From NCBI GenBank assembly GCA_035274465.1, contig DATEOF010000190.1, forward strand, positions 47,967 through 111,966: 64,000 bases of DNA, written 5' to 3'. Positions 6,595 through 54,951 of this stretch are shown here, piece by piece; the first letter of the stretch is position 1, and every line of letters begins with the position of its first letter. The notes below the pieces were generated by a model. It ran no database searches, was not told where the DNA came from, and saw only the letters and a list, made by a program, of their open reading frames with translations. The position numbers and the translations under genes were made by a program. This DNA is from Polyangiales bacterium (GTDB lineage: Bacteria > Myxococcota_A > Polyangia > Polyangiales > JAFGIB01).

Positions 6595-6740
6595 AATCGA
6601 TACTACTGCCGCCGATCGCCGCGCGAGAAGTCGTAGGCGAGCAGCCCGCTTCGCCCACAGGTATGGAAGCTTGCCGCTCCCAGCTGCAGCGCACGACGGG
6701 TCGCTCGAGCGATCTGACACAATCGGCCAGTACGTTTTGT

Positions 6741-9781: not shown

Positions 9782-11284
9782 TCAGTTCGGGTTCGTGTTC
9801 GGGTACAACACCCCGATCGCGCCCACGCACATTTCGTCCAGCGTGTCTTCTCCCAGCTTCACTTCGACTGGAGCGTTCATGTCGCGTTCGTGCAGCGCCT
9901 GGGCGACGAAGCGGTTCTGCATCGTGTTGTCGTACAGGCAGTGCAGCTTGAGCTTGTCACCGTTCTTGATCGTCGGCAGCTCCGCGTACTGCGCGTCGTA
10001 CGCATAGCCACGTTGCCAGTTGAAGTTCCACTTGGGCGTCTGGATCAGACACTCTTCGCGATCGGCGTCACTCGTCGTGTCGGTGTGCTCCAGCCGAACT
10101 TGCATGTCGCGGCCGACGTAGTGCATGTGCGTGCCGGCTGCGTACACCTTGAGCTGGAAGCCCGGTGGGAGCTTGAAGGTCCAGCTCATGTCCTCGACGT
10201 GATCGGTGACATCGGGCGGGATGACGAACTCGGCCTGGACTTCGCCGGGTTGGCGGACCAACTCCGAGACGCCTTCAGGGTACTCTTCGCGCTCTTTCTG
10301 GGCGTTGCCGACCAGGATGATCTGATTGATCAGCTCGGGGCGCTCATCGGTCAGCATCAGCGAGAGCTTGGTGTCCGCGTCGGTCTCGGACTGGCCCGTG
10401 GGATGGTAGTGGACGTCGAGCAGCACCAGCGCGTCTTTGTCCACGAGCTGAGCGCTGCCCGGCGGCGAGATGTTGGGCATGGCACCGGGTGCCCAGGCGT
10501 CGAGCATCGTGGTCGTCAGGCCGTTGAGACCCGGTCCGCCGAAGCAATCGTAGCGATCGCCCGCGCCGATGCCCTTGCGCTCGCGGAGCACCGCTTCGAG
10601 CTGCGACTTGTCGCGCGGGGCGCCTTCGGCCGTCTTGCCCGGCTCGATCACGTAGGTCACGACGTGATGCAGTACCTTCGCGTTGCCCGCGGTGATCGTG
10701 CGCCCCACCACGTAGCTGTCTTTCTCGAGCCCGGGGTCCACGACCACACAGGTGTGGATGTCTCGGGCACCGCTCACGACGATCGGTTCCGGCAGTCGCA
10801 TGATCACGTCTTCGCGCTCGAGCCGCGGAATCGGGCGCGCCGGGAGATGTGGCGCGTGCGTGGCCTCCGCCCGCGGCATCTCCGGAGCACCGGCGCGGGC
10901 CCAGCGCCGGAGCAAGCTCTTCTGATGATCGCTCAGACGCAGGTCGTCGTACCACGGCCTGCGAGGCTTACAGGCGTCCGTTTCCTGGGCGAGAAACGGC
11001 GGCATCAGGTCTTGCTCGACCGCATCCGCCATCGCACTCGCCCAGCCCTTCACCGTGGCGTACTCCTGCATCGAGAACGGCGCGATACCGCCGTCTTGAT
11101 GGCATTGCGTACACTTCTCGTGAACGATCGGCGCTATATCGGCCTGCCAGCTGACTTGCGGGCGATCCGTGGTGGCTGACTGATCGCCACTATCTTCAGT
11201 GTTGGAGCAGCCCAACAGCAGCACGCCGGCTGCGATAGCGAGCCTCAGGAAACCGCGAGGATTGTTTCGAGCTCGATGGAACAT
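9782..11284 (-). CDS. Lipoprotein: c-type haem motif (CTQCH) fused to a copper type II ascorbate-dependent monooxygenase-like (PHM/DBH-like) domain
   Basis: Lipoprotein signal MFHRARNNPRGFLRLAIAAGVLLLGC. CxxCH at CTQCHQDGG. CuH-like HH (KVLHHVVTYV) and HYHP. CuM-like HMH (GTHMHYVGRD) with a downstream Met (DEMCVG). Convergent with the sigma/anti-sigma pair. Confidence 0.65.
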   Translation of the reverse strand: MFHRARNNPRGFLRLAIAAGVLLLGCSNTEDSGDQSATTDRPQVSWQADIAPIVHEKCTQCHQDGGIAPFSMQEYATVKGWASAMADAVEQDLMPPFLAQETDACKPRRPWYDDLRLSDHQKSLLRRWARAGAPEMPRAEATHAPHLPARPIPRLEREDVIMRLPEPIVVSGARDIHTCVVVDPGLEKDSYVVGRTITAGNAKVLHHVVTYVIEPGKTAEGAPRDKSQLEAVLRERKGIGAGDRYDCFGGPGLNGLTTTMLDAWAPGAMPNISPPGSAQLVDKDALVLLDVHYHPTGQSETDADTKLSLMLTDERPELINQIILVGNAQKEREEYPEGVSELVRQPGEVQAEFVIPPDVTDHVEDMSWTFKLPPGFQLKVYAAGTHMHYVGRDMQVRLEHTDTTSDADREECLIQTPKWNFNWQRGYAYDAQYAELPTIKNGDKLKLHCLYDNTMQNRFVAQALHERDMNAPVEVKLGEDTLDEMCVGAIGVLYPNTNPN

Positions 11285-11353
11285 GTTCACCCCAGGAGTG
11301 CGATGCCTCGCTTGGAACTTCGAGGCAATGATCCACATCACAAGAGTCCGAAC

Positions 11354-20840: not shown

Positions 20841-21314
20841 GTGACTCACGAGAACCGAGGCCTGCGCATCGGGGAGCTGGCTCGCCAGTCCGGGCTGAGC
20901 GTCGATACGCTCCGGCACTACGAACGCCTGCAGCTGTTGCCAGTCTTGCGCCGCACCGAGGGCGGGTTCCGGCAATATCCGCCCGACGCCGTGCGGCGCG
21001 TGAAGGTGATCCAGCAGGCGCTTGCGATCGGCTTCGGCCTGGAAGAGCTGTCCAGCTTCTTCAAGGAGCGCACAGCCGGCCGCGCGCCGTGTCGAGCGGT
21101 GCGGCGTCTCGCGCAAGCGAAGTTCGAGGCGCTCGAGCAGTACATCCAGCGCTTGCTCGCGGGGCGCGAAGCGTTGCATGCGCTGCTCGAGAACTGGGAT
21201 GAGCGCTTGCACGCAGCACAAGGCCAGCCAGCGCGCTTGCTCGACTCGCTCGCCGAGCTCGAACCGTTCCCCGCAAACCTCTCGCCGCGCCTGCCCCGAA
21301 AACGGTCCCGTTGA
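20841..21314 (+). CDS. MerR family transcriptional regulator
   Basis: HTH LRIGELARQSGLSVDTLRHYERLQLL and a coiled-coil dimerisation region. A Cys is present near the C-terminal part (GRAPC). Confidence 0.8.
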   Translation: MTHENRGLRIGELARQSGLSVDTLRHYERLQLLPVLRRTEGGFRQYPPDAVRRVKVIQQALAIGFGLEELSSFFKERTAGRAPCRAVRRLAQAKFEALEQYIQRLLAGREALHALLENWDERLHAAQGQPARLLDSLAELEPFPANLSPRLPRKRSR

Positions 21315-23281: not shown

Positions 23282-25207
23282 TCAAGCGCGGTGCGGCGAG
23301 GCCAGCACCTCGAAGTCCAGCAGCCACACGTTGTCCAGCGCGTCCACCGCCGCCAGCTGCGAGCCGAAGGTCGCCATGCAGCCGAAAGCGGCGATGCCGT
23401 GGAGCGTGTACAGGCACTCGCCGCTCTCGCTCGACCAGAAGCGCAGCGTGCTGTCGGTCGACGCCGAGACGATCAACGTGTCCGTGGCGTAGGCGCAGGC
23501 ACGGATGCGTCCGTTGTGTCCGCGCAGCCAGCGCAGCTCGCTGCCGTTACGCGCGTCCCACTCGCGAAACGAGCCGTCGTTGGCGCTCGACACGATGCGC
23601 GCGCCATCCGGGCTGTAGGCGCAGGTATCGACCCAGGCGTAGTGGCCCTGGAAGACACCTCGGGTTCGGTAGCTGTTCGCGTCCCACTCGCGCAGCGTGG
23701 CGTCGTCACCGATGGCTGCCAGCACGCGCGCGCCGTCCGGACTGTAGGCACAGGCCGTGACGCGACCTTTCTGGCCCTCGAAGCTGCCGAGCGCTTCACC
23801 GGTGCGCGCGTCCCACTGGCAGAGCTTGCAGTCGTAGGATGCGGTCAAGAAGCGGCTGCCGTCCGGGCTGAACACGCACGCGCTCACGGTTTCAGCGTGC
23901 TTGCCGGAGCGGATCGCCTTGCCGGTGGCGCGATCCCACAACGTCCAGCCGCCATCCGCTGCGCCCGACACGGCACGCGTCCCGTCGGAGCTGTACGCGC
24001 AGCTGGCGATCCACGATCGCGCGGGGTGACCTTCGAAGCGGAACACTTCGCCGCGGGTACGGGCGTCCAGCTCGCGCAGGCTGCCATCGTAGCCGGCCAA
24101 CAACACGCGCGCGCCATCCGGGCTGAGCGCACACGCGCTGATGTTCGCCACGCCACCCTGCGAGGCCTGTGCAGCGTCCACCACGGAGAGATCCCACTCA
24201 CGCAGCGTCCCGTCCGACAGGCCGGAGAGTGCGCGCGCTCCGTCGGGGCTGAACGTGCACGCGCGAACCTGCGCGGGCTGCGCGATCCGCCTCAGCTCGC
24301 GGCTCGAGTCGGCGTCCCACACACGCAACGTGCGATCGTCGGAGCCGGACAGCACGTGCTTCCCATCCGAGCTGTAGGCGCAGCTCCAAACACTCGCGGT
24401 GTGGCCTTCGAAGCTGCGCAGCAACTCGCACGAGGGTGTCGCCCACTCGCGAAGCGTGCCGTCGCGCGCGCTCGCGAGCACGCGCGTGCCATCGGGGCTG
24501 TAGGCACAGGCGAGGATCTGATCGCTCGAACCTTCGAAGCGGCGCAGCTCGTCGCCTGTGTTCGCGTCGTACTCGCGCAGCGTCGTCTCGTGAAATGCCA
24601 GCACGCGCGCTCGATCGGGGCTGCGCGGGCAAGCCGCGGTCCAAAAATTTCCGTAGCGGCCGCGGTGGTGAGGCTGCAGCCACCACACGCGATACGAGCC
24701 GTCGCTGGCCACCGACCAGGCCATCGAGTCGTCGCTGCCGTCGTACGCACACCAGGTGATCGGCTGGGTTTGTCCGACGTGGAGCCGCAACGGAAAGCCA
24801 GTACGCGCGTCCCACTCGCGCAGCGTGCGATCGTACGAGCTCGTCAGCACGCGCGTGCCATCCGCGTTGTACGAACACGCGCTCACCGCGTCCGAGTGCC
24901 CGCGCCAGATGTTCCGTTCGCCGGACTCCATCCGCACCGGTTGCCGCAGCTGCACCGGCGAGTCGAGGCCCGGCAGCAGCTCGCGGATCGCGGCGTGCTC
25001 CACACCGTCCGCGCGCAGCTGTTGATAGAGCACGCTGGGCAGCGAGTCCGGCTCGGCGTGCAACCAGCCGCTGCCGAGGCGCAGCGCGCGCTCGATGCGC
25101 CGCGTCGGCTCGTCCGACCCGCTCGCGACCATCCGCTCCAGCTCGAGCAACAAGCCGCTACTGCCCAACTCGTGAAGCATGCGTGTCAACCGAGCGAGAT
25201 CGAGCAT
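23282..25207 (-). CDS. WD40-repeat protein (about 12 repeats)
   Basis: Many repeats match the pattern GHxxxVxxCAYSPDGxRxLSxxxDxTLREWD. Confidence 0.85.
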   Translation of the reverse strand: MLDLARLTRMLHELGSSGLLLELERMVASGSDEPTRRIERALRLGSGWLHAEPDSLPSVLYQQLRADGVEHAAIRELLPGLDSPVQLRQPVRMESGERNIWRGHSDAVSACSYNADGTRVLTSSYDRTLREWDARTGFPLRLHVGQTQPITWCAYDGSDDSMAWSVASDGSYRVWWLQPHHRGRYGNFWTAACPRSPDRARVLAFHETTLREYDANTGDELRRFEGSSDQILACAYSPDGTRVLASARDGTLREWATPSCELLRSFEGHTASVWSCAYSSDGKHVLSGSDDRTLRVWDADSSRELRRIAQPAQVRACTFSPDGARALSGLSDGTLREWDLSVVDAAQASQGGVANISACALSPDGARVLLAGYDGSLRELDARTRGEVFRFEGHPARSWIASCAYSSDGTRAVSGAADGGWTLWDRATGKAIRSGKHAETVSACVFSPDGSRFLTASYDCKLCQWDARTGEALGSFEGQKGRVTACAYSPDGARVLAAIGDDATLREWDANSYRTRGVFQGHYAWVDTCAYSPDGARIVSSANDGSFREWDARNGSELRWLRGHNGRIRACAYATDTLIVSASTDSTLRFWSSESGECLYTLHGIAAFGCMATFGSQLAAVDALDNVWLLDFEVLASPHRA

Positions 25208-25459
25208 GAAGAGCGAGATAGCTCCCGCTCCGGAGGAAGTAAACGTCGAGCTTACCGCCGTTCCTGCGCACCGCCACTCGCGGCGGTCCTACCCGGCGAA
25301 CTCGGCCGTCGAAGCGCGGTCAGTCAGTGCACGGGCTATGAGTGCGGGATGCGCACCTCGCTCGACAACTCCACCGCATGCCGACAACCAACGCGAGTCG
25401 TAGCGCGGCGCTGCTGTGCTCAGTAACTTGACACTTAGACATAGCGTCGAGGTGGCCAC

Positions 25460-26995
25460 ATGGCGCGTGATTTGTTCGGGCTACTCGATACGTCCGGCTT
25501 CCCGGCTCGTTGGCACTGCGGGAGGTGGTCGGCTCAGCTGGGTTGGCTGCACATCGGTTCGGACGTCGTGATCTTCGGCGCGTACATGGTGATCCCCATC
25601 GCGCTGATCTTCTTCATCCGACAACGGCCGGATCTACCGAAGCCGTTTCCGATCGTGTTCTGGATGTTCGGCGCCTTCATCGTCGCCTGCGGCCTGACGC
25701 ACATCATCGAGGCCGTGATCTTCTGGCACCCGGTGTATCGACTGGCGGGCGCCGTGAAGGCTGCGACTGCCGGTGTTTCGTGGCTCACCCTGGCGTTCCT
25801 CGTGCCTGCGCTTCCGAAGGCGCTCGCGCTCAAGACCCCCGAACAGCTGAAGCGACAGGTGGCCGAGGCGACGCTGCAGCTGCGGCGCGAGCGAGACGCG
25901 GTGGCGCACCTCGCGGCCATCGTGGAGTCTTCGAAGGACGCGATCCTCAGCCAGGACCTCGAGGGTCGCATCCAGAGCTGGAACCGCGGTGCCGTGCGTA
26001 TGTTCGGCTATGCGGCTTCGGAGGTCATAGGCCGGCAACTCGACCTGTTCGTGCCGCAGCCGGGACGTGCCGCCCTGGAAGCGGCGCTCGAGCGCGCGCG
26101 CCACGGAGAGGCAACCGACGAGCTATCGATGGAGTGGGAGCGAAGCGATCGCACGCCCGTCGCGCTGGCGATCACGATCTCGCCCTTCGTGAGCCAGGAT
26201 GGAGAGGTCGGCGGTACGTCGATGATCGCCCGCGACATCTCGGCGTTGCGCACGAAGACGCTCGAGCTCGAGCGCTCGAACGAGGAGCTCGAGCAGTTCG
26301 CCTACGTGGCGTCCCACGATCTCCAGGAACCCCTGCGCATGGTCGTGAACTTCATGGGCCTGCTCAAGCGCACGCACGCCACGGCGCTCGACGACACCGC
26401 GACGAAGTACGTCGACTTCGCGGTGGACGGAGCCACGCGCATGAAGCAGCTGATCGATGCGCTGCTGCAGTACTCCCGCGTGGATGCCCGCGGCGGCGAG
26501 TTTGGACGGGTGCGGCTGCAATCGGCCTTCGACAACGTCGTTCGCAACTTGCCGGTGCTGGTCGAGGAGAGCGGCGCGCGCATCGACTGCGACCCGCTGC
26601 CGGAGGTGTGGGGCGACACGACCCAACTGGAGCAGGTGCTCCAAAACCTGATCTCGAACGCGATCAAGTTCCGCGGCGAGCGCACACCCGAGGTCCAGAT
26701 CCGCTGCACCGAGCACGGCCACCACTGGGAGGTCACGGTCGCGGACAACGGCATCGGCTTCGAGCCGCGGCACGCCGAACGCATCTTCCACATGTTTCAG
26801 CGGCTGAACGAACGCTCGCGCTATGCGGGAAGTGGCATCGGCCTGGCGATCGCGCGCAGAATCATCAGCCGGCACGGCGGGCGCATTTGGGCCAGCGCGG
26901 TCCCTGGACAGGGCGCGGCGTTCAAGTTCACGCTTCCCAAGCTCCCGCCGCTGGAAGGAATGAAAGCAGCTTCCTATGATCAAGCTCTCCAGTGA
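25460..26995 (+). CDS. Sensor histidine kinase with N-terminal ETR1-type ethylene-binding (copper-binding) transmembrane domain plus PAS plus HisKA/HATPase
   Basis: The N-terminal three-TM domain aligns with the plant ETR1 ethylene-binding domain. Compare SDVVIFGAYMVIPIALIFFI with ETR1 SDFFIAIAYFSIPLELIYFV. Compare FGAFIVACGLTHIIE with ETR1 FGAFIVLCGATHLIN, which holds the Cu-ligand Cys and His. The third helix also matches. A PAS domain follows. The H-box is ASHDLQEPLRMV, and N, G1 and G2 boxes are present. Confidence 0.8.
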   Translation: MARDLFGLLDTSGFPARWHCGRWSAQLGWLHIGSDVVIFGAYMVIPIALIFFIRQRPDLPKPFPIVFWMFGAFIVACGLTHIIEAVIFWHPVYRLAGAVKAATAGVSWLTLAFLVPALPKALALKTPEQLKRQVAEATLQLRRERDAVAHLAAIVESSKDAILSQDLEGRIQSWNRGAVRMFGYAASEVIGRQLDLFVPQPGRAALEAALERARHGEATDELSMEWERSDRTPVALAITISPFVSQDGEVGGTSMIARDISALRTKTLELERSNEELEQFAYVASHDLQEPLRMVVNFMGLLKRTHATALDDTATKYVDFAVDGATRMKQLIDALLQYSRVDARGGEFGRVRLQSAFDNVVRNLPVLVEESGARIDCDPLPEVWGDTTQLEQVLQNLISNAIKFRGERTPEVQIRCTEHGHHWEVTVADNGIGFEPRHAERIFHMFQRLNERSRYAGSGIGLAIARRIISRHGGRIWASAVPGQGAAFKFTLPKLPPLEGMKAASYDQALQ

Positions 26996-27380
26996 CGGCC
27001 CGGTCGTGATGGTCGACGACAACGCGGGCGACCTGTTCTTCGTCGAGCGCTGCTTCGACGCATCCAAGCTGGAGAACGCCTGGCTGTCTTTCGCGCGCGG
27101 CGACGCCTTCATGGAGATGCTCGCGCAGGTCAAGGACGGCCTCGCGCCGATGCCCGCGATCGTGCTGCTCGACCTGAACATGCCGGGTATGACCGGCCTC
27201 GACGTGCTGGAGGCGGTGCGCGCCGACACCTATTTCAGCGAGTTGCCGATCTTCTGCATCCTCACGAGCTCGAGCGATCCGCGCGACTTCGAGAAGGCCA
27301 AGCGCCTGGGCGTGAGCGGCTACTGCACGAAGGCCAGCTCGATGGACGAATACGTGGCGTTCTTCGACTCGCTCGTCTAG
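26976..27380 (+). CDS. Single-domain response regulator (CheY-like receiver)
   Basis: REC-domain signatures (VMVDDNAGD, LLDLNMPGMTGL) and a conserved Lys region. Overlaps the end of the kinase gene. Confidence 0.8.
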   Translation: MIKLSSDGPVVMVDDNAGDLFFVERCFDASKLENAWLSFARGDAFMEMLAQVKDGLAPMPAIVLLDLNMPGMTGLDVLEAVRADTYFSELPIFCILTSSSDPRDFEKAKRLGVSGYCTKASSMDEYVAFFDSLV

Positions 27381-28387
27381 CCGACCTGCACGAGCCAGCC
27401 CCGCGTCGATTGGCTGAGCTCCACGCGGCACGGCAGGAACATGCCGATCACTTGCACGTTCGTGCGCGTGTGCAGGCTGGGCTCGGAGGTCCGCAACGCG
27501 CCGCCGCCCGCGAGCGCACACGGGATCAGCAGCTGATCCGCCAGGTGCTCGCCGACCGGGACGTCGCTCAGCAGGTACCTGCGAACCTCGATTGCGAGGT
27601 CACGCGCCAGCTTCTCGGCGCGCAGGCCCACCTCACCGAACGCGGTGAAGGTCTCCGTCAGCGCAGCACTTCGCACGCTCACGCTCGCGACGTTCCCCGG
27701 ACCCGCGCTATCGACGCGCGCCGTCTCGACCTCGATGGGATGCTCGGCGAGCTCCCTGGCGAGCACCTTCATCTCGCGCTCCGCGATGCGCTCGGAGAGC
27801 TTCGAGACGACCGCCTTGATGCTGACGCGCTGCAGCTCGCCGCGCTCCAGCAGCTCGAGCGGCTGGAGCTTCGCGCCGCCCTGGATCTCGACCTCGAAGC
27901 GGCCACCGCCCGCAGGATAGAAGCCAGGGCGCACGAGCTCTGCGCTCACGGTCGCTCCCATGCGCTGCAGCTGCGGCAGGAAGGTTCGTGCGATGAAGTC
28001 GAACGGCGGCGCTAGTGGGTTGTGCGTGCCACCCTCGAACGCGATGCGCGATTCGCCCGCAGCCATCAGCAGCGCAGGCAACACTGTCTGGAACACCAGC
28101 GTGGCGCTGCCCGCCGTGCCCACCGCGAATTGATACTCACCGTGCCTGACCGGCCCCGGCTCGAAGTCGAGCACGTCCGAGCCGAGCTCCGCGCCCGAGA
28201 CGCGCGCGCCGCAGATCTCCGCCATCGCCTTCACCGCGGTGAGGTGCTGGCGCAGCAGCCCGCGCTTGCTCCGCTTGGCGCGGATGCGCTCGATGCGGAA
28301 CGGCTTGCCCGTCACCGCCGCCAGGGCGAGGGAGGTGCGCAGGACCTGCCCGCCTCCCTCGCCCAAACTACCGTCGATCGTCAGCAT
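27377..28387 (-). CDS. rtcA: RNA 3'-terminal phosphate cyclase
   Basis: N-terminus MLTIDGSLGEGGGQVLRTSLALAAVTGKPFRIERIRAKR is characteristic of RtcA. Lies downstream of rtcB. Confidence 0.85.
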   Translation of the reverse strand: MLTIDGSLGEGGGQVLRTSLALAAVTGKPFRIERIRAKRSKRGLLRQHLTAVKAMAEICGARVSGAELGSDVLDFEPGPVRHGEYQFAVGTAGSATLVFQTVLPALLMAAGESRIAFEGGTHNPLAPPFDFIARTFLPQLQRMGATVSAELVRPGFYPAGGGRFEVEIQGGAKLQPLELLERGELQRVSIKAVVSKLSERIAEREMKVLARELAEHPIEVETARVDSAGPGNVASVSVRSAALTETFTAFGEVGLRAEKLARDLAIEVRRYLLSDVPVGEHLADQLLIPCALAGGGALRTSEPSLHTRTNVQVIGMFLPCRVELSQSTRGWLVQVG

Positions 28388-28394
28388 GTTGATG

Positions 28395-29630
28395 CTAGCC
28401 CTTCACACACACCACTTGCTTGAGCGTGTGCACGACGTCGACGAGATCGCGCTGCGCTTCCATGACGGCATCGATGTCCTTGTAGGCACCGGGCGTCTCG
28501 TCGATCACGTCGCGATCCTTGCGACACTCGACGCCTTCGGTCGCCTTCTGGTGATCCTCGAGGGTGAAGCGCTTCTTCGCCGCCGTGCGCGACATCACGC
28601 GCCCTGCGCCGTGGCTGCAGCTCTCGAACGCCTCCGGGTTACCCTTCCCGCGCACGATGTACGAGCGCGCACCCATGCTGCCCGGGATGATCCCGAGCTC
28701 ACCCAGACCTGCGCGCACCGCACCCTTGCGCGTCACGAACACGTGCTTGCCGTAGTGATGTTCCTTCGAGACATAGTTGTGGTGGCAGTTGACCGCCTGC
28801 TTCGCCATTTGAAACGGCGGGATGCCCTTCAAGCGGCGCACCGAGTCGAGCACGGCTTCCATCATCAACTCACGGTTGTGGCGCGCAAACGACTGCGCCC
28901 AGCTCACCGCCTCGACGTAGTCCGCGAAGTGCTCGCTACCTTCCTCGAAGTAGGCGAGGTTCGCGTCCGGCAGGTTGGAGATGTGTCGCTGCATGTCCTT
29001 CTTCGCCAGCTCGATGAAGTAGCTACCGATGCGGTTACCCACGCCGCGCGAGCCGCTGTGCAACATGAACCAGACGTGGTCCGTCTCGTCCAGACACACT
29101 TCGATGAAGTGGTTACCCGTGCCGAGCGTACCGAGGTGCACCACGTGGTTGCAGTTCTTCACAGCTCGATGCTTCTCGCTGATGAGGTTCCAGCCGGCTT
29201 CCAGCTCGGCCCACACGCGCGCGACTCGGTTCGGGATCGCATCCCACGAGCCGTGGTCGCCCTTCCCGCCGTGCTTCCCGCGGCCGTGCGGCACGCTGCG
29301 CTCGATCGTTCCGCGCATCGGCGCGAGGCTGTCCGGGAGATCGCTCGCCTTGAGCGTGGTCTGCACCGCCATCATTCCACAGCCGATGTCGACGCCGACC
29401 GCCGCAGGGATCACCGCGCCGACGGTCGGGATCACACTACCGACCGTCGCACCGATGCCGAGGTGTACGTCCGGCATCGCCGCCACCCAGCGGTGGATGA
29501 TCGGCAGCCGCGCGATGTTCGAGAGCTGCGCCACGGCTTCACCTTCCACGGGCACGCCGCGCGTCCAGGTCTTGATCGGCACGCCGCCGTTCGAATCGCG
29601 AAGCTCGTAGGTCGTGTTCATGGTCGTCAT
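28395..29630 (-). CDS. rtcB: RNA-splicing ligase RtcB
   Basis: Conserved RtcB blocks (PDVHLGIGATVGSVIP, metal-binding His and Cys residues). A GGAGG-like RBS is absent. The ATG is at 29630. Confidence 0.9.
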   Translation of the reverse strand: MTTMNTTYELRDSNGGVPIKTWTRGVPVEGEAVAQLSNIARLPIIHRWVAAMPDVHLGIGATVGSVIPTVGAVIPAAVGVDIGCGMMAVQTTLKASDLPDSLAPMRGTIERSVPHGRGKHGGKGDHGSWDAIPNRVARVWAELEAGWNLISEKHRAVKNCNHVVHLGTLGTGNHFIEVCLDETDHVWFMLHSGSRGVGNRIGSYFIELAKKDMQRHISNLPDANLAYFEEGSEHFADYVEAVSWAQSFARHNRELMMEAVLDSVRRLKGIPPFQMAKQAVNCHHNYVSKEHHYGKHVFVTRKGAVRAGLGELGIIPGSMGARSYIVRGKGNPEAFESCSHGAGRVMSRTAAKKRFTLEDHQKATEGVECRKDRDVIDETPGAYKDIDAVMEAQRDLVDVVHTLKQVVCVKG

Positions 29631-29663
29631 GTCTACTTCTCGTTTCTAGGTTATGCCCGTATC

Positions 29664-29681
29664 TGCAGGGGTCGTGCCAGG
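29664..29681 (-). promoter_or_regulatory. Sigma-54 (-24/-12) promoter upstream of rtcBA
   Basis: The minus strand reads cTGGCACgacccCTGCAg, that is TGGCAC-N5-cTGCA (consensus TGGCAC-N5-TTGCW). It lies about 35 nt upstream of the rtcB ATG, in the region divergent from rtcR. Confidence 0.5.
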
Positions 29682-29757
29682 GTGCGGGGCCCCAAAACGG
29701 GCTGCGGAGCGGCTTTTCACGCATCGTGGGATAGAGCATTATCCGTTCGTATAAACC

Positions 29758-31353
29758 ATGAAGACAGTCGTCGTCGGCCTGCTGGGAACCGTGCTGGATG
29801 CGCTCAAGGGGCGCGGAGACCGCTGGCAGCAATGGCGGCCGACCGTCGACCTCTGCCGACAGCAAGACCTCGTCGTGGACCGGCTGGAGCTGCTGCTGCA
29901 GGCGCGTTTCCAGACTCTCGCAGATCAGGTGATCGGCGACATCGCGTCGGTTTCGCCGGAAACCAAGGTCCGCAGTCACTACGTGGACTTCGCCGATCCC
30001 TGGGACTTCGAGCAGGTCTACGGCGCGTTGCACGACTTCGCCCGCAACTACGAGTGGAAGACCGGACAGGAGCAGTACCTCGTACACATCACCACGGGCA
30101 CGCACGTCGCGCAGATCTGCAAGTTCTTGCTGACCGAGTCGCGACACTTCCCTGCACGCCTGATCCAGACCGGACCGCCGAAGAAGCCCGGGACACCCGG
30201 CAGCTACAACGTCATCGACCTCGACCTGTCCAAGTACGACCGCATCGCGTCGCGCTTCCGGCAGGAGCAGAGCGAGAGCCGAGACTTCCTGAAGTCCGGC
30301 ATCGCCACGCGCAACGCCACCTTCAACAAGCTGATCGATCGCATCGAGCAGGTGGCGATCGCCTCGCGCGCGCCGCTCTTGCTCATGGGCGCGACCGGCG
30401 CCGGCAAGTCGCAGCTGGCTCGACGCATCTACGAGCTGAAGAAGCTGCGCCGTCAGGTCGAAGGCCGCTTCGTCGAGGTGAACTGCGCGACCATCCGCGG
30501 TGATGGCGCGATGAGCGCGCTGTTCGGTCACGTGAAGGGCGCATTCACGGGCGCCGTCGGCGGGCGCGACGGCCTGCTGCGCGAGGCGCACAAGGGCATC
30601 TTGTTCCTGGACGAGATCGGCGAGCTCGGGCTCGAGGAGCAGGCGATGCTGCTGCGCGCCGTGGAGGAGGGCCGCTTCTTCCCCGTGGGCTCCGACCGCG
30701 AGGCCGAGAGCCAGTTTCAGCTGCTGTCCGGGACCAACCGCGACCTGCACGAAGCCGCGGCCAAGGGTACGTTTCGCGACGACCTGCTGGCGCGCATCAA
30801 CCTCTGGACCTTTCGATTGCCCGCGTTGCGCGACCGTCCGGAAGACATGGAGCCCAACCTCGACTACGAGCTCGTGCGTTGGTCCGAGACGCAGGGCAGC
30901 CGTGTCACCTTCAGCAAGGAAGCTCGCAAGCTGTTCCTCGACTTCGCGACGTCGCCCCGCGCGACCTGGTCCGGCAACTTCCGTGACTTCAGCGCAGCCG
31001 TGCAGCGCATGGCCACGCTGGCAGAGGGAGGCCGCATCGCCGTGCCGCACGTGCGCGACGAGATCGAGCGACTCGAGCTCAACTGGCAACGGCCGGTGAG
31101 CGCGAAGCTCACGGGGGACGACGAGCTGCTGAGCCGCTACCTCGGTGCAGGCGCGCTCGCGGGGCTCGATCGCTTCGACCGGGTGCAGCTCGCCGATGTG
31201 CTCGGCGTGTGCACCACGTCCAAGTCGCTGTCCGACGCCGGCCGCACGCTGTTCGCCGAGTCGCGAAAGCGCCGCAGCTCGCAGAACGATGCCGATCGCG
31301 TGCGGAAGTACCTCGCGCGCTTCGGGATCACGTGGTCGGACCTGGGTAACTGA
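29758..31353 (+). CDS. rtcR: Sigma-54-dependent transcriptional activator RtcR (CARF-like N-domain plus AAA+ plus HTH)
   Basis: Conserved RtcR N-terminus. AAA+ Walker A (GATGAGKS). GAFTGA-like motif (VKGAFTGAV). C-terminal HTH. Divergent from rtcBA. Confidence 0.85.
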   Translation: MKTVVVGLLGTVLDALKGRGDRWQQWRPTVDLCRQQDLVVDRLELLLQARFQTLADQVIGDIASVSPETKVRSHYVDFADPWDFEQVYGALHDFARNYEWKTGQEQYLVHITTGTHVAQICKFLLTESRHFPARLIQTGPPKKPGTPGSYNVIDLDLSKYDRIASRFRQEQSESRDFLKSGIATRNATFNKLIDRIEQVAIASRAPLLLMGATGAGKSQLARRIYELKKLRRQVEGRFVEVNCATIRGDGAMSALFGHVKGAFTGAVGGRDGLLREAHKGILFLDEIGELGLEEQAMLLRAVEEGRFFPVGSDREAESQFQLLSGTNRDLHEAAAKGTFRDDLLARINLWTFRLPALRDRPEDMEPNLDYELVRWSETQGSRVTFSKEARKLFLDFATSPRATWSGNFRDFSAAVQRMATLAEGGRIAVPHVRDEIERLELNWQRPVSAKLTGDDELLSRYLGAGALAGLDRFDRVQLADVLGVCTTSKSLSDAGRTLFAESRKRRSSQNDADRVRKYLARFGITWSDLGN

Positions 31354-39318: not shown

Positions 39319-42300
39319 GTGAAGCCTTCCCCGCTGCCGCCGCCAGAAGCGACGCAATCGAACACGCCGCAGCCTTCCGCTCAGACTTCGGACCACAGCG
39401 CGCTACAGGACCGCTATCGCGAGCTCGCGCCGCTCGGCCAAGGCGGCAACGCGTCGGTGTTGCGCGCGTTCGATGCCGTGCGCGAGCAGTGGGTTGCGCT
39501 GAAGCGCTTGCGAACCGCAGGCGACGTGCCCACCAGTGAACTGGCCAAGCGCATGCTCGAGACCGAGTATCACACGCTGCGGCAGGTCCAACATCCGTCG
39601 ATCATCGAAGTCTACGACTACGGCATCGATCGAGAGCTCGGGAGCTACTACACCATGGAGCTCCTGTCCGGAGAGGACCTCCAGACACTTTCGCCGCTGC
39701 CGTGGCGCGACGCATGCCGACTGTTGATGGGCGTGGCCTCATCGCTGGCCGTCGTGCATTCGAGACGGCTCGTGCATCGCGACGTGACCGCGCGCAACGT
39801 GCGCCGCACGGAGGAGGGCAGCGCGAAGCTGATCGACTTCGGCGCGCTCACGCAGATGGGCCCGGTCAGGAACATCGCCGGAACGCCGCCCTACGTACCG
39901 CCCGAGGCGATCTGCCAGCAACCCCTCGACGGTCGCGCCGACCTGTACTCGCTGGGTGCGCTCGCCTACTTCACGCTCACGGGCCGGCACGCATTTCCGG
40001 CGCGGGACTTCGCCGAGCTGCGGCAGCTCTGGCACTCGCCGCCATTCTCGCTGCGCGGCATCGTCTCCAGCATCCCCGAAGCGCTCAACGAGCTGGTGAT
40101 GGCGCTGCTGGATCCCAACGTGCTGGCGCGTCCGCAATCCGCGGCCGAGGTCATGGTGCGCTTGAGCGCGATCGCGGACCTGCCGCTGACGGAGGCGGCG
40201 GCCGTGGAGCACGCCTACCTCGCAGCGCCCCGCCTGGTCGCGCGCGACGCAGCCCTGGTTCAGGCGCGCACGCACCTGCTGCGCGCAGCGCGCGGGCAAT
40301 CCCACACGCTGCTGCTCGGCGGTGCAGCCGGCATGGGCCGCTCGCGCATGCTCGATGCCTGCGTGCTCGACGCGGAGCTCGCCGGAGCGCTGGTGCTGCG
40401 CGCGGATGCCACGGACGGCACGCTCGCCTACGGCGTGTTGCGGCGGCTCGTGCGGCGCTTGCTCGACGCGCGGCCTGGGCTACGCGCGCGCGCAAGCGAG
40501 CTGGGCCTGGATCCGCTCGTCGCGTCCGGCAACGAGGGCAGCGCTGCATTGCCGCGCCGCGATGCGCTGATCGCCGCCGGCGTGCGCCTACTCGCTGGGG
40601 CGTGCTCGCGCCGGGTGCTCGCGATCGCGGTCGACGATGCGCACGCGATCGACGAACCCTCACTCGCATGCCTCGCGAGCCTCGCCGAGGACCCGAGCGC
40701 GCAACGCCTGATCCTGCTACTCAGCCGCGAAACCGGCGCTCCGCTCGCGGCCAAGCTCGCCTGGGACTTGCTCGAGCAACGCGCCGATCGGCTGGAGCTC
40801 GCCCCGCTCGAGGCAACCGACGCACGCCTGCTGCTGACCTCGGTGTTCGGCGAGGTGCCACAGCTCGACATGCTGGCCACGCTGCTGAACAGCAGCGCAC
40901 GGGGCAACCCGCGCGACCTGATGGACGCGGCGCAGCGCATCGTCGACGCCCAGCTGGTGCGCTACTCGGGCGGGCAGTGGTTCATCACGGCCGAGCCCGC
41001 GCGAATCTCCGCGTGCCTGGAACGCCCGAGCGACGTGCGCTCGCGGCTCGCGCAGCTGCCGGCGGCGGGGCGCGTACTGCTTGCGCTGCTCGCGCTCGAC
41101 CGAGATCACCGCCTGCGCGAGGCAGACTACGCCGCGCTCTGCCCCGAGCACGACGTGGCGAGCCTGCACTGGGCGCTGAACGATCTGCTGCGCGAGCGCT
41201 GGCTGGTGCGCGCGGAGGACGCGCATCACTTCGTGCGTGCGAGCGATCAGCGCGGCGTCGAGGCGGCGCTCGCACCCGAGCATCGGGCAACACTGCACCT
41301 GGGCATCGCGCGACACCTGGAGAGCTCCCAGCGCGACCCCGTCTACGAGGTGTATCACTTCGTGCAGGGTCAACGCGCAGAGCTCGCGCACGCCGCGATG
41401 GCACGTTACATCGACATGGCGGACAAGAACCCGCAGCGCGTGCGCGCGGCGATCGAGCTCGACATGGTCGAACGCATGGTCGAGCTCGGCGCGAGCCAGG
41501 GCTGGCCGTTGCCGCTGCTCACGCTGTACCGGATGCAGAGCATGCTGCTCGCCGCAGCATTCGGCATCTGGGAGCGCGCGTTGCCGCAGGCAGACGCCAC
41601 GCTGCAAGCGCTGTCCGAATTCGCAGGCCTGCGCGACTACCACGCCCTCGCGCAGCTGCCGGCGGCGGAGCGTTTGCAGGCCGCGCTGGGAGCGGCTCAA
41701 GAGCGCTTCGCGGCCGCAGCTCCGGGCACACATCCGCTGCCGCCGATCAACGCCGTGCGAGCGCTGACCCGCGTGTCGACGATCGCGGCCGCGAGCGCCT
41801 ACTGGATGACCGAACCCGGTGCGTTCGACCGCATCCCTTCGCTCGCGCCGCTCTTGCCACTCTCACCCGCGCTCTCGCTCACCGAGCGCATCGTCAACGC
41901 GTTCCGTGCCCTGGTCACCGGCCAGGAGTGGACCGGCTGGGATGCGTTCAAGCAGCTCTTCGCCGACGTGCGCGCCATGCCGGAAGCGCAGCTCGACGCG
42001 CGCAACCGCTACACGCTCGAGCTGGTCGTGCTCTCGCCGGTCTGCTTCCGCGACGCGCGGCACGCGGCCGCGAGCACGCTCCAGCACTGCGCCGCACTCG
42101 CCGCGAAGCAACCCGATCAGGCGCAGAACTACGCCATGCTCTACCACATGGTCATGGGCGACGCGGTGGCTGCCGAGCACGCGCGCGGCCAGTGCGAGCT
42201 CTCGACGCTGCGCGCCGGCGCCACCAGCGACGCGCGCTCCACCCGGCTGCAAGTCAGCTCGATCTTGTTCCCGCTCACCAGCGACCTGATGGCGCTCAAG

Positions 42301-43365
42301 CGCCTGTGCGGCGAGCTCGAGGAGGTTCGCCAACAGCGGCCGGGCTGGCGCTTCGGCAGCGAGATCATCGCGGCGCACGCGCTGCGCTGCCAGGGCAAGC
42401 TGGAACAAGCGCTGCTGCACATCGAGCGCACGCTCGCGGAGCTGCCGGCAGCGCACCTCGAGTTTGCGCCCTGCGCGCAGGCGCACGTGTGGATCCTGAG
42501 CGACCTCGGCCAGCACGAAGCTGCGGTGAGCGAGGGCATGCGTCACCGCGACAAGGCGCGCGCGCTGGACATTCCGACGGCGTGGCTCGACGTGCTGATC
42601 GCCGAGGCGCTGTCGCGCACCGAGCGCCACGACGAGGCCGAGCGACTCTGGCAGGACGCGCTCACGGCCCTCCAGGGCCGCGCGATCGGCGGCGTACACC
42701 TCGGCTTCGCGTTCGAGGTCGGTGCGCGGGTCGCGCGAGCCCGCGGTGACATGGCCATGTTCGGGGAACGCTGCGATCAGTGCGCGCAGTTCTACCTGAA
42801 CGGCAGCGATGCAGCGCTCGCAGCGCGCTACCGTCGCTTGATCGCCGAACCCACGGCCGAGCCGGAGCAGTATCCGTACGCCGACGTCGGGGCGGTCCAT
42901 ACTGCCCTCTCGCAGTGTGGAAACCGAGGCGAACGCGCCGCGCAAGCGAGCGCCCTCCTGCGCGATCAAGCCCAGAGCAGCGAAGCGCTGATCTTCGGCA
43001 TCCGCGCCGGTCGCCTGGAACCGCTCGACGCCGACAGCGGCGTGGACGACGCGGTGCTCGGCATGGTCCAGAGCTACCTCACGCAGGAGCTCGCAGCTGA
43101 CAGTCAGATCACGCGTACCGCAGCAGCCGGCTCACTCGACGACCTGGGCGAGAGCGAGGTCGTCTCACGCTGTGAGATCGCCGGTTGCAGTTACATGCCC
43201 GTGCTGCTCCACGCCCGCGACGACCAGGGACCCTTCGTCGTCGGCGTGGCGCTGCTGCGCAGCGAGGGTTCTGAAAACCTCGCGGGTTATCAGCGCCTCG
43301 TGCCGAACCTGTCCAAGGCCCTGTTGGCGCTGGGCGACGTCGAGCTGGTACGGCGCAGCGGCTAA
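39319..43365 (+). CDS. Giant Ser/Thr protein kinase with STAND-type P-loop NTPase and TPR-like helical repeats
   Basis: Kinase motifs are present (GQGGNASV…ALK; HRDVTARNV; DFGAL; GTPPYVPPE). A P-loop follows (LLGGAAGMGRSRMLD). The C-terminal region, over 700 aa, is helical and Ala/Leu-rich. Confidence 0.85.
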   Translation: MKPSPLPPPEATQSNTPQPSAQTSDHSALQDRYRELAPLGQGGNASVLRAFDAVREQWVALKRLRTAGDVPTSELAKRMLETEYHTLRQVQHPSIIEVYDYGIDRELGSYYTMELLSGEDLQTLSPLPWRDACRLLMGVASSLAVVHSRRLVHRDVTARNVRRTEEGSAKLIDFGALTQMGPVRNIAGTPPYVPPEAICQQPLDGRADLYSLGALAYFTLTGRHAFPARDFAELRQLWHSPPFSLRGIVSSIPEALNELVMALLDPNVLARPQSAAEVMVRLSAIADLPLTEAAAVEHAYLAAPRLVARDAALVQARTHLLRAARGQSHTLLLGGAAGMGRSRMLDACVLDAELAGALVLRADATDGTLAYGVLRRLVRRLLDARPGLRARASELGLDPLVASGNEGSAALPRRDALIAAGVRLLAGACSRRVLAIAVDDAHAIDEPSLACLASLAEDPSAQRLILLLSRETGAPLAAKLAWDLLEQRADRLELAPLEATDARLLLTSVFGEVPQLDMLATLLNSSARGNPRDLMDAAQRIVDAQLVRYSGGQWFITAEPARISACLERPSDVRSRLAQLPAAGRVLLALLALDRDHRLREADYAALCPEHDVASLHWALNDLLRERWLVRAEDAHHFVRASDQRGVEAALAPEHRATLHLGIARHLESSQRDPVYEVYHFVQGQRAELAHAAMARYIDMADKNPQRVRAAIELDMVERMVELGASQGWPLPLLTLYRMQSMLLAAAFGIWERALPQADATLQALSEFAGLRDYHALAQLPAAERLQAALGAAQERFAAAAPGTHPLPPINAVRALTRVSTIAAASAYWMTEPGAFDRIPSLAPLLPLSPALSLTERIVNAFRALVTGQEWTGWDAFKQLFADVRAMPEAQLDARNRYTLELVVLSPVCFRDARHAAASTLQHCAALAAKQPDQAQNYAMLYHMVMGDAVAAEHARGQCELSTLRAGATSDARSTRLQVSSILFPLTSDLMALKRLCGELEEVRQQRPGWRFGSEIIAAHALRCQGKLEQALLHIERTLAELPAAHLEFAPCAQAHVWILSDLGQHEAAVSEGMRHRDKARALDIPTAWLDVLIAEALSRTERHDEAERLWQDALTALQGRAIGGVHLGFAFEVGARVARARGDMAMFGERCDQCAQFYLNGSDAALAARYRRLIAEPTAEPEQYPYADVGAVHTALSQCGNRGERAAQASALLRDQAQSSEALIFGIRAGRLEPLDADSGVDDAVLGMVQSYLTQELAADSQITRTAAAGSLDDLGESEVVSRCEIAGCSYMPVLLHARDDQGPFVVGVALLRSEGSENLAGYQRLVPNLSKALLALGDVELVRRSG

Positions 43366-43685: not shown

Positions 43686-43727
43686 ATTGCGGTCGTGCCC
43701 GGGCTGCAGCATGCTTCGGGCGGCGCC

Positions 43728-54860: not shown

Positions 54861-54951
54861 ATTCCCCTCCCGCCACAAACCTCATTCATCGCGAGCACTC
54901 GCGCTAGTTCAAAAAAAGAACCTCGCAACACATCCCGACCTCCGCTATGTT

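What the first reader, a model, noticed from the sequence alone, without database searches (positions are those of the whole stretch)
25460..27380. Ethylene-receptor-like (ETR1-type ethylene/copper-binding domain) histidine kinase with cognate single-domain response regulator, divergent from a WD40 protein
The first roughly 130 residues of the kinase align helix-by-helix with the plant ETR1 ethylene-binding domain. The segment FGAFIVACGLTHIIE matches ETR1 FGAFIVLCGATHLIN, which carries the Cu(I)-ligand Cys65 and His69. Bacterial homologs of this domain are functionally characterised essentially only in cyanobacteria. A myxobacterial copy, coupled to PAS plus a HisKA kinase and a stand-alone receiver, would be a candidate bacterial ethylene or other small-olefin/copper sensor. 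The window also holds several copper-enzyme-like and metal-stress genes: the PHM-like proteins and a MerR-regulated Spy-like operon.
Basis: partly seen in the sequence, partly recalled or inferred. Interest (0 to 1): 0.75.

Follow-up and report, generated by a model that had tools for sequence, protein, structure and literature searches.

The report
Predicted ethylene-sensing kinase in a myxobacterium
A soil myxobacterium (Polyangiales-like) carries a two-gene signalling unit whose membrane sensor is a well-conserved copy of the copper-dependent ethylene-binding domain of plant ethylene receptors; the identification is solid, but thousands of bacteria have such genes and a system with the same layout has already been proven in Azospirillum, so it is a good candidate and not a surprise.

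Summary
Window 25460-26995 (+) encodes a 511-aa histidine kinase. Residues 27-124 match Pfam ETR1_N (PF25487) end to end (E=1.7e-34, 118 bits against a cut-off of 27). A PAS domain, HisKA and HATPase_c follow. A 134-aa receiver-only response regulator (26976-27380) overlaps the kinase gene by 20 nt.

All residues known to matter for copper and ethylene binding are present: D35, Y42, I45, P46, I74, C77, H81 and K100, equivalent to ETR1 D25, Y32, I35, P36, I62, C65, H69 and K91.

The system has the same layout as AzoEtr1/AzoRR of Azospirillum brasilense, a proven ethylene receptor published in 2025.

The domain family is very large: 5,531 clusters at 50% identity match at E<=1e-10. Orthologs 73-78% identical occur in Polyangiales MAGs. 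They always keep the overlapping receiver gene, but their flanking genes differ. The WD40 gene, the rtc genes and the claimed copper context are therefore incidental.

Most likely mechanism: a Cu(I)-loaded sensor whose kinase is switched off by ethylene, acting through an Rcp-like receiver. Verdict: new member of a known kind, modest interest.

The parts
25398..25440 (+). Conserved upstream block: TCGTAGCGCGGCGC at -62, then CTCAGTAACTTGAC, a -35-like element. Probably the promoter or operator region of the kinase-receiver operon.
   Evidence: The 14-mer is identical in the ortholog locus L082 at -66. It is also largely conserved (12 of 14 positions) in L084, where the block aligns together with CTCrGTAmCTTGnC. 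The consensus sigma-70 scan found nothing, so the function is inferred.
25460..26995 (+). Sensor histidine kinase, 511 aa: ethylene-binding-like membrane domain, PAS, HisKA, HATPase_c.
   Evidence: It is 76% identical over its full length to P0276. dN/dS is 0.17 against L082.
25517..25519 (+). Cys20 in the N-terminal RWHCGRW motif, predicted to be periplasmic. Candidate inter-subunit disulfide, equivalent to ETR1 Cys4/Cys6.
   Evidence: Invariant in the 70-sequence alignment and present in 298 of 309 domain copies. The single Cys of bacterial receptors is discussed in PMC6682694. The role is inferred.
25538..25831 (+). ETR1_N (PF25487) ethylene/Cu(I)-binding domain, residues 27-124.
   Evidence: E=1.7e-34, 118.4 bits, model positions 2-97 of 97.
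25532..25624 (+). Transmembrane helix 1 (residues 25-55), carrying D35 (25562-25564), Y42, I45 and P46.
   Evidence: AlphaFold2 model with pLDDT 94.4, hydropathy, alignments.
25646..25717 (+). Transmembrane helix 2 (residues 63-86), carrying I74, the predicted Cu(I) ligands C77 (25688-25690) and H81 (25700-25702), and G78.
   Evidence: C is present in 308 of 309 family members sampled, H in 307 and G in 309.
25736..25825 (+). Transmembrane helix 3 (residues 93-122), carrying K100 (25757-25759), equivalent to ETR1 K91, the partner of the Asp in signal output.
   Evidence: K in 276 and R in 17 of 309. The role of K91 is from PMC10266040.
25838..25888 (+). Cytoplasmic linker helix (residues 127-143) joining helix 3 to the PAS domain.
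25907..26239 (+). PAS domain (residues 150-260). No cofactor signature was identified.
   Evidence: PAS E=5.9e-15, PAS_9 E=4.1e-14.
26288..26488 (+). HisKA dimerisation/phospho-acceptor domain. H286 (26315-26317) lies in SHDLQEPLR.
26612..26941 (+). HATPase_c catalytic domain: N box with N400, G1 DNGIGF at 429-434, G2 GSGIGL at 457-462.
   Evidence: The best solved relatives are 8f71 and bacteriophytochrome kinase modules.
26976..27380 (+). Stand-alone receiver (134 aa). Its start lies 20 nt inside the kinase gene. Acidic pocket D14/D15, phospho-acceptor D66 (27171-27173), T97, K119.
   Evidence: It is 69% identical to the L082 receiver with dN/dS 0.32. The best solved relatives are the phytochrome-partner receivers 6xvu, RcpB and Rcp1.

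Best explanation
This is a two-gene, co-transcribed two-component system whose input module is a bacterial ethylene-binding domain.

Proposed mechanism:
- The kinase is a membrane homodimer with three transmembrane helices per subunit. The N-terminus faces the periplasm and may be disulfide-linked through C20.
- Each subunit holds one Cu(I) ion between C77 and H81 on helix 2. D35 on helix 1 positions or polarises the site.
- Ethylene dissolved in the membrane binds the Cu(I). This perturbs the D35-K100 bridge to helix 3. The movement passes through the linker helix and the PAS domain to the HisKA/HATPase core.
- By analogy with ETR1, SynEtr1 and AzoEtr1 (the inverse-agonist model), the kinase autophosphorylates on H286 and phosphorylates D66 of the receiver in air, and ethylene turns this off.
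- The phosphorylated Rcp-like receiver has no output domain, so it acts by protein-protein interaction on an unidentified target. In the two bacteria studied, that output affects surface and biofilm behaviour.

Shown here: the domain identity, every key residue, the three-helix topology, intact catalytic motifs, operon coupling, conservation of the pair and purifying selection.

Inferred: copper loading, ethylene as the ligand, the sign of regulation, and the downstream target.
For: - Profile match: ETR1_N over its full length, E=1.7e-34.
- Key residues: D35, Y42, I45, P46, I74, C77, H81 and K100 align with ETR1 D25, Y32, I35, P36, I62, C65, H69 and K91. They also align with AzoEtr1 D35, C75, H79 and K98. 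These positions are 97-100% conserved in 309 family members, and the query has the consensus residue at each.
- Structure: the AlphaFold2 model has pLDDT 94.4, with helices at 25-55, 63-86 and 93-122 plus a linker helix.
- Topology: the basic loops at 53-61 and 120-132 fit an N-out, C-in orientation.
- Catalytic motifs: the kinase and receiver motifs are intact.
- Operon: the genes overlap by 20 nt.
- Validated relative: AzoEtr1 has the same domain order with nearly the same boundaries and is 30% identical (E=4e-44). It has an overlapping 135-aa receiver and binds 14C-ethylene. The C-to-A and D-to-A mutants of AzoEtr1 were built as predicted non-binders. The inverse-agonist behaviour is reported in the same paper (PMC11819568).
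- Mechanism literature: the roles of D25, K91, C65 and H69, and one Cu per monomer (PMC10266040; PMC6586836).
- Conservation: the kinase plus overlapping receiver is kept in Polyangiales orthologs despite different flanks. dN/dS is 0.17 for the kinase and 0.32 for the receiver.
- Recurrence: the same pairing of a kinase with a downstream stand-alone receiver occurs in Planctomycetia and cyanobacteria.
Against: - No binding or physiology data exist for this protein or for any myxobacterial copy.
- The source lineage is known only from metagenomes and MAGs.
- No copper-delivery gene is linked.
- The PAS domain could bring in a second, dominant signal.
- The membrane domain has no solved structure, so the geometry rests on models.
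- The sign of regulation is extrapolated from three distant systems. The kinase core is of a different subtype from AzoEtr1 (phytochrome-like SHDLQEPLR H-box against AHEMSQPL).
- The list of seven binding residues is partly from my recollection of Wang et al. 2006. Only D25, C65, H69 and K91 are named in the papers I could read.
Confidence: 0.72

Rival explanations
1. Copper-status sensor. The domain binds Cu(I), but the physiological variable reported to the kinase is membrane or periplasmic copper availability (apo versus holo), not ethylene.
For: The Cys/His/Asp site is first of all a Cu(I) site (PMC10266040; PMC6586836).
Against: Residues needed for ethylene binding but not for copper binding are conserved as strictly as the metal ligands, for example the K91 equivalent K100 along with Y42, I45, P46 and I74. 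No copper efflux or chaperone gene is linked here or in the orthologous loci. The known bacterial members respond to ethylene.
Confidence: 0.08
2. Sensor of another small Cu(I)-binding ligand. The same site detects a different unsaturated or pi-acid volatile relevant to a soil predator, such as other alkenes, CO, or isocyanide-type or fungal and prey volatiles. Ethylene would be only a surrogate ligand.
For: From my own knowledge, plant receptors bind other olefins, CO and isocyanides with lower affinity. This lineage has no demonstrated plant association. The family is enormous and ecologically diverse (7,833 clusters), which makes a single universal ligand less certain.
Against: The pocket residues are identical to those of receptors with nanomolar ethylene affinity, including Asp rather than the low-affinity Asn variant at position 35. 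All three tested lineages bind ethylene.
Confidence: 0.1
3. PAS-driven kinase. The membrane domain serves mainly as a dimerising membrane anchor, and the cytoplasmic PAS domain senses the real signal (redox, oxygen, a metabolite).
For: A clear PAS domain lies between the sensor and the kinase. Relatives carry from zero to four PAS domains, which shows modular signal integration.
Against: An anchor would not keep 97-100% conservation of the ligand-site residues. Some relatives lack PAS entirely but keep the membrane domain plus kinase (P0130, P0132). No cofactor motif was recognised in the PAS domain. AzoEtr1 has the same PAS arrangement and still signals ethylene.
Confidence: 0.07
4. Ion-permeation role. 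Following recent reports that plant subfamily I receptors are Ca2+-permeable, the three-helix dimer might also or instead conduct cations.
For: Two preprints and one paper report Ca2+ permeability for ETR1/ERS1 and OsERS1/2, and they suggest testing bacterial homologs.
Against: No bacterial evidence exists. The intact kinase and its cognate receiver argue for phosphorelay as the output. I could not test this here.
Confidence: 0.03

Closest known systems
AzoEtr1 / AzoRR-etr1 of Azospirillum brasilense Sp7 (PMC11819568)
   Same: The domain order is the same and the boundaries almost coincide: ETR1_N 27-122, PAS 155-266, HisKA 280-347 and HATPase 391-513, against 27-124, 150-260, 277-343 and 385-494 here. 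The lengths are 525 and 511 aa. In both, a 135- or 134-aa receiver-only gene starts inside the end of the kinase gene. The D, C, H and K residues are all conserved.
   Different: Identity is only 30% overall and about 41% in the sensor domain. The kinase core here is of the phytochrome/Cph1-like type and the receiver is Rcp-like. The N-terminal motif is RWHCGRW, against HGVCLFW in AzoEtr1. The host is an uncultured Polyangiales-like myxobacterium, not a plant-associated alphaproteobacterium. No experimental data exist for it.
SynEtr1 (Slr1212/UirS/PixA) of Synechocystis and other cyanobacterial receptors (GeiEtr1/2)
   Same: It has an N-terminal ethylene-binding domain with a single N-terminal Cys, and histidine-kinase output to a neighbouring response regulator. 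Cyanobacterial loci fetched here also pair a kinase carrying this domain with a stand-alone 148-151-aa receiver.
   Different: SynEtr1 carries a cyanobacteriochrome GAF photosensor and signals to a DNA-binding regulator. The protein here has one PAS domain, no GAF and no photosensory module.
Arabidopsis ETR1/ERS1 (plant subfamily I ethylene receptors)
   Same: It has the three-helix Cu(I)/ethylene-binding domain with the same ligand-site residues. Identity to plant domains is 31-38%. It also has a HisKA-type kinase.
   Different: Plants have a GAF domain where this protein has PAS. Plant receptors have two N-terminal Cys, sit in the ER membrane, signal mainly through CTR1/EIN2 rather than phosphorelay, and ETR1 has a fused receiver.
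Cph1/Rcp1 and bacteriophytochrome kinase-receiver pairs
   Same: The transmitter module and the receiver are most similar to these among solved structures. For the kinase the hits are 8avv and 8sgk (E about 1e-34). For the receiver they are 6xvu (E=3e-22), RcpB (1e-14) and Rcp1 (4e-9). The receiver has a single domain, so output must go through protein interaction.
   Different: The input module is the ethylene-binding domain plus PAS, not PAS-GAF-PHY with bilin. The receiver here is 134 aa and lacks the C-terminal FWLxxVxLP tail seen in the 148-155-aa receivers next to other kinases with this domain.

Membership tests
Ethylene-binding domain, Pfam ETR1_N (PF25487) | Profile match above the curated threshold over the whole model | tested here: met
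   118.4 bits against a cut-off of 27, E=1.7e-34, model positions 2-97 of 97, residues 27-124.
Ethylene-binding domain, Pfam ETR1_N (PF25487) | Three transmembrane helices at the N-terminus | tested here: met
   The AlphaFold2 model (pLDDT 94.4) has helices at 25-55, 63-86 and 93-122. Hydropathy peaks are at the same places.
Ethylene-binding domain, Pfam ETR1_N (PF25487) | Cu(I) ligands Cys65 and His69 on helix 2, spaced i and i+4 | tested here: met
   C77 and H81 lie in FGAFIVACGLTH. Both are invariant in alignments with plant, cyanobacterial and Azospirillum receptors.
Ethylene-binding domain, Pfam ETR1_N (PF25487) | Asp25 on helix 1 (the high-affinity Asp, not the Asn variant) and Lys91 on helix 3 | tested here: met
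   D35 and K100. Their roles are described in PMC10266040.
Ethylene-binding domain, Pfam ETR1_N (PF25487) | Remaining residues required for ethylene binding in ETR1 (Y32, I35, P36, I62). This list is from my recollection of Wang et al. 2006; the papers I could read say only 'seven residues'. | tested here: met
   Y42, I45, P46 and I74 are invariant in the 12- and 70-sequence alignments.
Ethylene-binding domain, Pfam ETR1_N (PF25487) | Saturable high-affinity ethylene binding that depends on Cu(I) | not testable with these tools
   This needs a 14C-ethylene binding assay on the expressed domain, as was done for ETR1, SynEtr1 and AzoEtr1.
Class I (HisKA) sensor histidine kinase | H box with phospho-acceptor His, plus N, G1 and G2 boxes in the ATPase domain | tested here: met
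   H286 in SHDLQEPLR, N400 in NLISNAIKF, DNGIGF at 429-434 and GSGIGL at 457-462.
CheY-like receiver (single-domain, Rcp-like) | Acidic pocket, phospho-acceptor Asp, conserved Thr/Ser and Lys, and no output domain | tested here: met
   D14, D15, D66, T97 and K119. Response_reg is the only Pfam match, with no output domain. The nearest solved structures are phytochrome-partner receivers.
AzoEtr1-type two-gene ethylene-receptor module | A kinase built as sensor domain, PAS, HisKA and HATPase, followed by an overlapping receiver-only gene | tested here: met
   The pair is conserved in orthologs.
Plant-type ethylene receptor (ETR1/ERS1 subfamily I) | GAF domain between the sensor and the kinase, and two N-terminal Cys | tested here: not met
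   No GAF match was found; PAS is there instead. Only a single Cys (C20) is present. It is therefore a bacterial-type relative, not a member of the plant subfamily.

The most novel reading that the evidence does not exclude
In this non-photosynthetic, predatory or saprophytic soil lineage with no known plant association, the Cu(I) site may not serve ethylene perception as it does in plants. It may instead be a general gas or olefin sensor whose native cue is another volatile, for example from prey, fungi or anoxic microsites. Alternatively, ethylene itself may act as a cross-kingdom or microbial cue steering myxobacterial social behaviour (motility, biofilm, development) through an Rcp-like receiver.
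Probability: 0.15. Interest if true: 0.6.

Novelty: new member of a known kind. Interest (0 to 1): 0.3.

Why it matters
If the protein binds ethylene, it would extend experimentally supported ethylene perception to Myxococcota. These are social soil predators in which no gas-hormone sensing is known, and I found no paper in the searchable library linking the ethylene-binding domain to myxobacteria.

It would also add a compact, PAS-only, phytochrome-type kinase and receiver pair. Such a pair could serve as a minimal model or biosensor chassis for studying how Cu(I)-ethylene binding is transmitted to a kinase.

It does not open a new question. Predicted receptors are already known to be widespread in bacteria, a Pfam family exists, and a proteobacterial system of the same layout has been validated.

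Tried and rejected
1. Solved-structure searches of the membrane domain found nothing. By sequence, the best hit was PsaK at E=0.46. By fold, Foldseek against the PDB gave no hit at E<=0.001. No experimental structure of this domain exists to compare with. The AlphaFold database library was unavailable.
2. I looked for the source genome. No near-identical protein or locus exists in the collections. The best hit in GTDB representative genomes is 41% identical, and the best proteins are 73-78% identical, from Polyangiales MAGs. Taxonomy is therefore inferred from the nearest relatives and from gene content.
3. I found only a marginal PHM-like ORF (9782-11341), a MopE-motif protein and a MerR regulator beside DUF1993 and GST. 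No Spy/CpxP, CopA, CopZ or Cus genes are present. I rejected this as functional context because nothing is adjacent to the kinase or conserved next to the orthologs.
4. I considered functional linkage to the WD40 gene or the rtcBA/rtcR cassette and rejected it, because both are absent from the orthologous loci.
5. Consensus promoter and terminator scans of 25100-27600 found nothing.
6. I tried to retrieve the published list of the seven ETR1 binding residues. Wang et al. 2006 is not held, and the other papers name only D25, C65, H69 and K91.
7. There is no second copy of the domain in the window.
Full report
**What is there.** Window 25460-26995 (+) is a 511-aa ORF, and 26976-27380 (+) is a 134-aa ORF that begins 20 nt before the first one ends. 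Both show the codon-position GC pattern of genuine genes in this roughly 67% GC sequence, with GC3 of 0.85 and 0.94. A GAGGTGG Shine-Dalgarno-like sequence precedes the first ATG.

Pfam assigns the large protein these domains:
- ETR1_N (PF25487, 'Ethylene receptor 1-like, N-terminal domain') at residues 27-124. The match has E=1.7e-34 and 118.4 bits against a cut-off of 27, and covers model positions 2-97 of 97.
- PAS at 150-260.
- HisKA at 277-343.
- HATPase_c at 385-494.

The small protein matches Response_reg only, so it has no output domain. NCBIfam has no specific model for either protein, only generic kinase and receiver hits far below their cut-offs.

**Residue-level check.** I did not want to rely on memory for the ETR1 sequence. 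I seeded a database search with the query domain plus my recollection of the ETR1 N-terminus, and then used only the named proteins that came back.

I also recovered the experimentally validated proteobacterial receptor AzoEtr1 from the A. brasilense Sp7 plasmid record. Its identity is confirmed because the residue numbers used in the paper (D35, C75, H79, K98) fit the ORF exactly.

In a 12-sequence alignment of plant, cyanobacterial, Azospirillum, Pirellulales and myxobacterial domains, the query's Y42, I45, P46, I74, C77 and H81 are invariant. D35 is conserved in all but one plant fragment, and K100 aligns with ETR1 K91 and AzoEtr1 K98.

The query has Asp at position 35. The Asn variant lowers affinity about 100-fold in ETR1 (PMC10266040; PMC11971883, abstracts).

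The papers I could read name D25, C65, H69 and K91 explicitly. The other four of the 'seven residues required for binding' (Y32, I35, P36, I62) are from my recollection of Wang et al. 2006, which is not held.

**Structure and topology.** An AlphaFold2 model of residues 1-144, built on a 70-sequence alignment, is confident (pLDDT 94.4, pTM 0.79). It shows three long helices at 25-55, 63-86 and 93-122, followed by a linker helix at 127-143. Hydropathy peaks coincide with the helices.

The basic loops (RQRPDLPK at 53-61, and K120, K125, K131 and R132 after helix 3) fit an N-out, C-in orientation, the same topology as ETR1. This is an inference.

C20, in the conserved RWHCGRW motif, would then be periplasmic. 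It corresponds to the single N-terminal Cys noted for bacterial receptors, which may form the dimer disulfide.

No solved structure resembles the domain by sequence or by fold.

**Signalling module.** The kinase has H286 in SHDLQEPLR and intact N, G1 and G2 boxes. Its closest solved relatives are 8f71 and bacteriophytochrome kinase modules.

The receiver has D14, D15, D66, T97 and K119. Its closest solved relatives are the stand-alone receivers that partner phytochromes: 6xvu at E=3e-22, RcpB and Rcp1.

The output is therefore a phosphorylated single-domain protein that must act by binding something else. That target is unknown.

**Comparison with the known systems.** AzoEtr1 is 525 aa, with ETR1_N at 27-122, PAS at 155-266, HisKA at 280-347 and HATPase at 391-513. 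It is 30% identical to the query end to end (E=4e-44). It is followed by a 135-aa receiver-only gene that overlaps its stop codon. The layout is the same as here.

The 2025 paper reports the following (PMC11819568):
- The first 130 residues of AzoEtr1 show saturable 14C-ethylene binding.
- C75A and D35A mutants were built as versions predicted not to bind ethylene.
- Ethylene, or loss of the receptor, reduces biofilm formation and root colonisation.
- An inverse-agonist model, in which ethylene switches the receptor off, fits plants, Synechocystis and Azospirillum.

**How common it is.** A full HMMER scan of 1.84 billion cluster representatives with the 144-aa domain finds 7,833 clusters at E<=1e-3, 5,531 at E<=1e-10 and 674 at E<=1e-30.

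Close relatives show many architectures: one to four PAS domains, hybrid kinases, the domain fused to a receiver, the domain with HisKA_3, and kinases with no PAS.

Among the fetched genome loci, 28 carry the domain and 26 of these have a receiver-like sequence immediately downstream of the kinase. In the eight loci I checked, the receiver is a separate 148-155-aa gene: downstream in Planctomycetia, a cyanobacterial MAG and several Microcoleus, and upstream in the Myxococcota MAG L001.

**Lineage and conservation.** No identical or near-identical sequence exists in the collections. The best GTDB-representative match is 41% identical, from a Myxococcota MAG. There the kinase sits behind a stand-alone receiver and a hybrid kinase.

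The full-length protein search reveals a tight ortholog group: about 14 clusters, 73-78% identical, 506-510 aa, with the same Pfam content. The named members are 'Polyangiales bacterium' MAGs. A further set at about 45% identity comes from 'Polyangiaceae bacterium' MAGs. A Kofleriaceae MAG has a 162-aa protein carrying only this domain. The window is thus most likely from an uncultured or unsampled Polyangiales lineage.

In three orthologous contigs the kinase is always followed by an overlapping 135-aa receiver, but the flanking genes differ completely:
- nrfHA-like cytochromes and a hydrolase in L082/L083;
- caa3 oxidase genes, a methyltransferase and a GST in L084;
- a PETase-like hydrolase and an ECF sigma factor in the P0282 contig.

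The divergent WD40 gene and the convergent rtcBA/rtcR cassette of the window are therefore incidental neighbours. Against L082 the kinase is 76% and the receiver 69% identical, with dN/dS of 0.17 and 0.32.

A 14-nt block, TCGTAGCGCGGCGC, lies at -62. It and a following CTCrGTAmCTTGnC element are shared upstream of the orthologs and probably mark the promoter region.

**The claimed copper context.** I scanned about 45 window ORFs against Pfam and found no copper transporter, chaperone or Cus/Cop regulator.
- ORF 9782-11341, with marginal PHM-domain hits: Cu2_monoox_C at E=4.2e-5 and 23.5 bits against a cut-off of 23, and Cu2_monooxygen at E=0.012, below its cut-off.
- A 982-aa protein with MopE-type metal-binding motifs (3854-6802).
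- A MerR regulator (20841-21314) placed divergently from DUF1993 and GST genes. These are not Spy.

All are at least 4 kb away, in other transcription units, and absent from the orthologous loci. They add nothing to the functional argument.

**Mechanism and rivals.** The best-supported model is a Cu(I)-dependent ethylene receptor kinase working as an inverse-agonist switch through an Rcp-like receiver. I put this at about 0.72.

The main rivals are:
- a sensor of another Cu(I)-binding volatile (about 0.10);
- a copper-status sensor (about 0.08);
- a PAS-dominated kinase in which the membrane domain is only an anchor (about 0.07);
- a cation-permeation role, suggested by recent plant work (about 0.03).

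The strict conservation of residues that affect ethylene binding but not copper binding argues against the copper-only and anchor readings. So do relatives that lack PAS but keep the membrane domain.

**Verdict.** The observation and its central interpretation are correct. This is a new, uncharacterised myxobacterial member of a large, curated and now experimentally anchored family of bacterial ethylene-receptor-like kinases, and it is architecturally equivalent to AzoEtr1/AzoRR. It is a reasonable candidate for biochemical testing, but it is not surprising to a specialist. Interest is about 0.3.

Noticed in passing
P0013, P0022 (Pirellulales), P0080 (Kofleriaceae) and about 30 other proteins: Many relatives of the sensor domain are short stand-alone proteins with no kinase or other output domain. 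They are 219-231 aa (ETR1_N plus a predicted coiled coil) or 162 aa, and all keep the Cys/His site. What such output-less ethylene-binding-domain proteins do is unclear.
   Followed up: partly
window 27377-31353: A complete RNA-repair cassette lies here: rtcA (27377-28387, -), rtcB (28395-29630, -) and the sigma-54 activator rtcR (29758-31353, +). It is convergent with the receiver gene, and the two stop codons overlap by 4 nt. It is absent from the orthologous loci, so it is unrelated to the kinase.
   Followed up: yes
L085 8001-10383 (Polyangiaceae MAG): A 45%-identical ortholog of the kinase is followed by an ECF sigma factor fused to a zf-HC2 anti-sigma domain, not by a receiver. This suggests a different output wiring in that lineage.
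   Followed up: no
L001 1214-4818 (Myxococcota MAG): Here the kinase with the ethylene-binding-like domain is the last gene of a three-gene cluster, behind a stand-alone Rcp-like receiver (148 aa) and a hybrid receiver-kinase-receiver protein (524 aa). This suggests a branched phosphorelay.
   Followed up: no
window 25398-25440; L082 9935-9975; L084 upstream of 8001: A conserved non-coding block (TCGTAGCGCGGCGC, then CTCrGTAmCTTGnC) lies 25-66 nt upstream of the kinase start in three orthologous loci. It is a candidate promoter or operator with no match to the sigma-70 consensus scan.
   Followed up: partly
window 9782-11341 (-): A 519-aa ORF has marginal matches to both domains of copper type II ascorbate-dependent monooxygenases (PHM/DBH-like): E=4.2e-5 and 0.012. 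It is unusual in bacteria if real, but I did not examine it further.
   Followed up: partly
window 39319-43365, 43695-44102 and 46382-47107, compared with L084 12066-17450: A 1348-aa Ser/Thr kinase with an AAA_16 domain and a DUF5995 protein occur near the kinase ortholog in the Polyangiales MAG contig L084 as well. A small ORF between them in the window (43695-44102, no Pfam match) may correspond to the AHSA1/Polyketide_cyc2-like gene of L084. These look like remnants of synteny and support the taxonomic placement of the window.
   Followed up: partly
window 60239-62100 (+): A second, unrelated two-component pair is present: a LytS-type histidine kinase (His_kinase PF06580) and a LytTR response regulator.
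   Followed up: no
window 53589-54878 (-): A 429-aa ORF has weak matches to PAP2 and to vanadium chloroperoxidase N-terminal and second-bundle domains, so it may be a haloperoxidase or acid-phosphatase-like enzyme.
   Followed up: no
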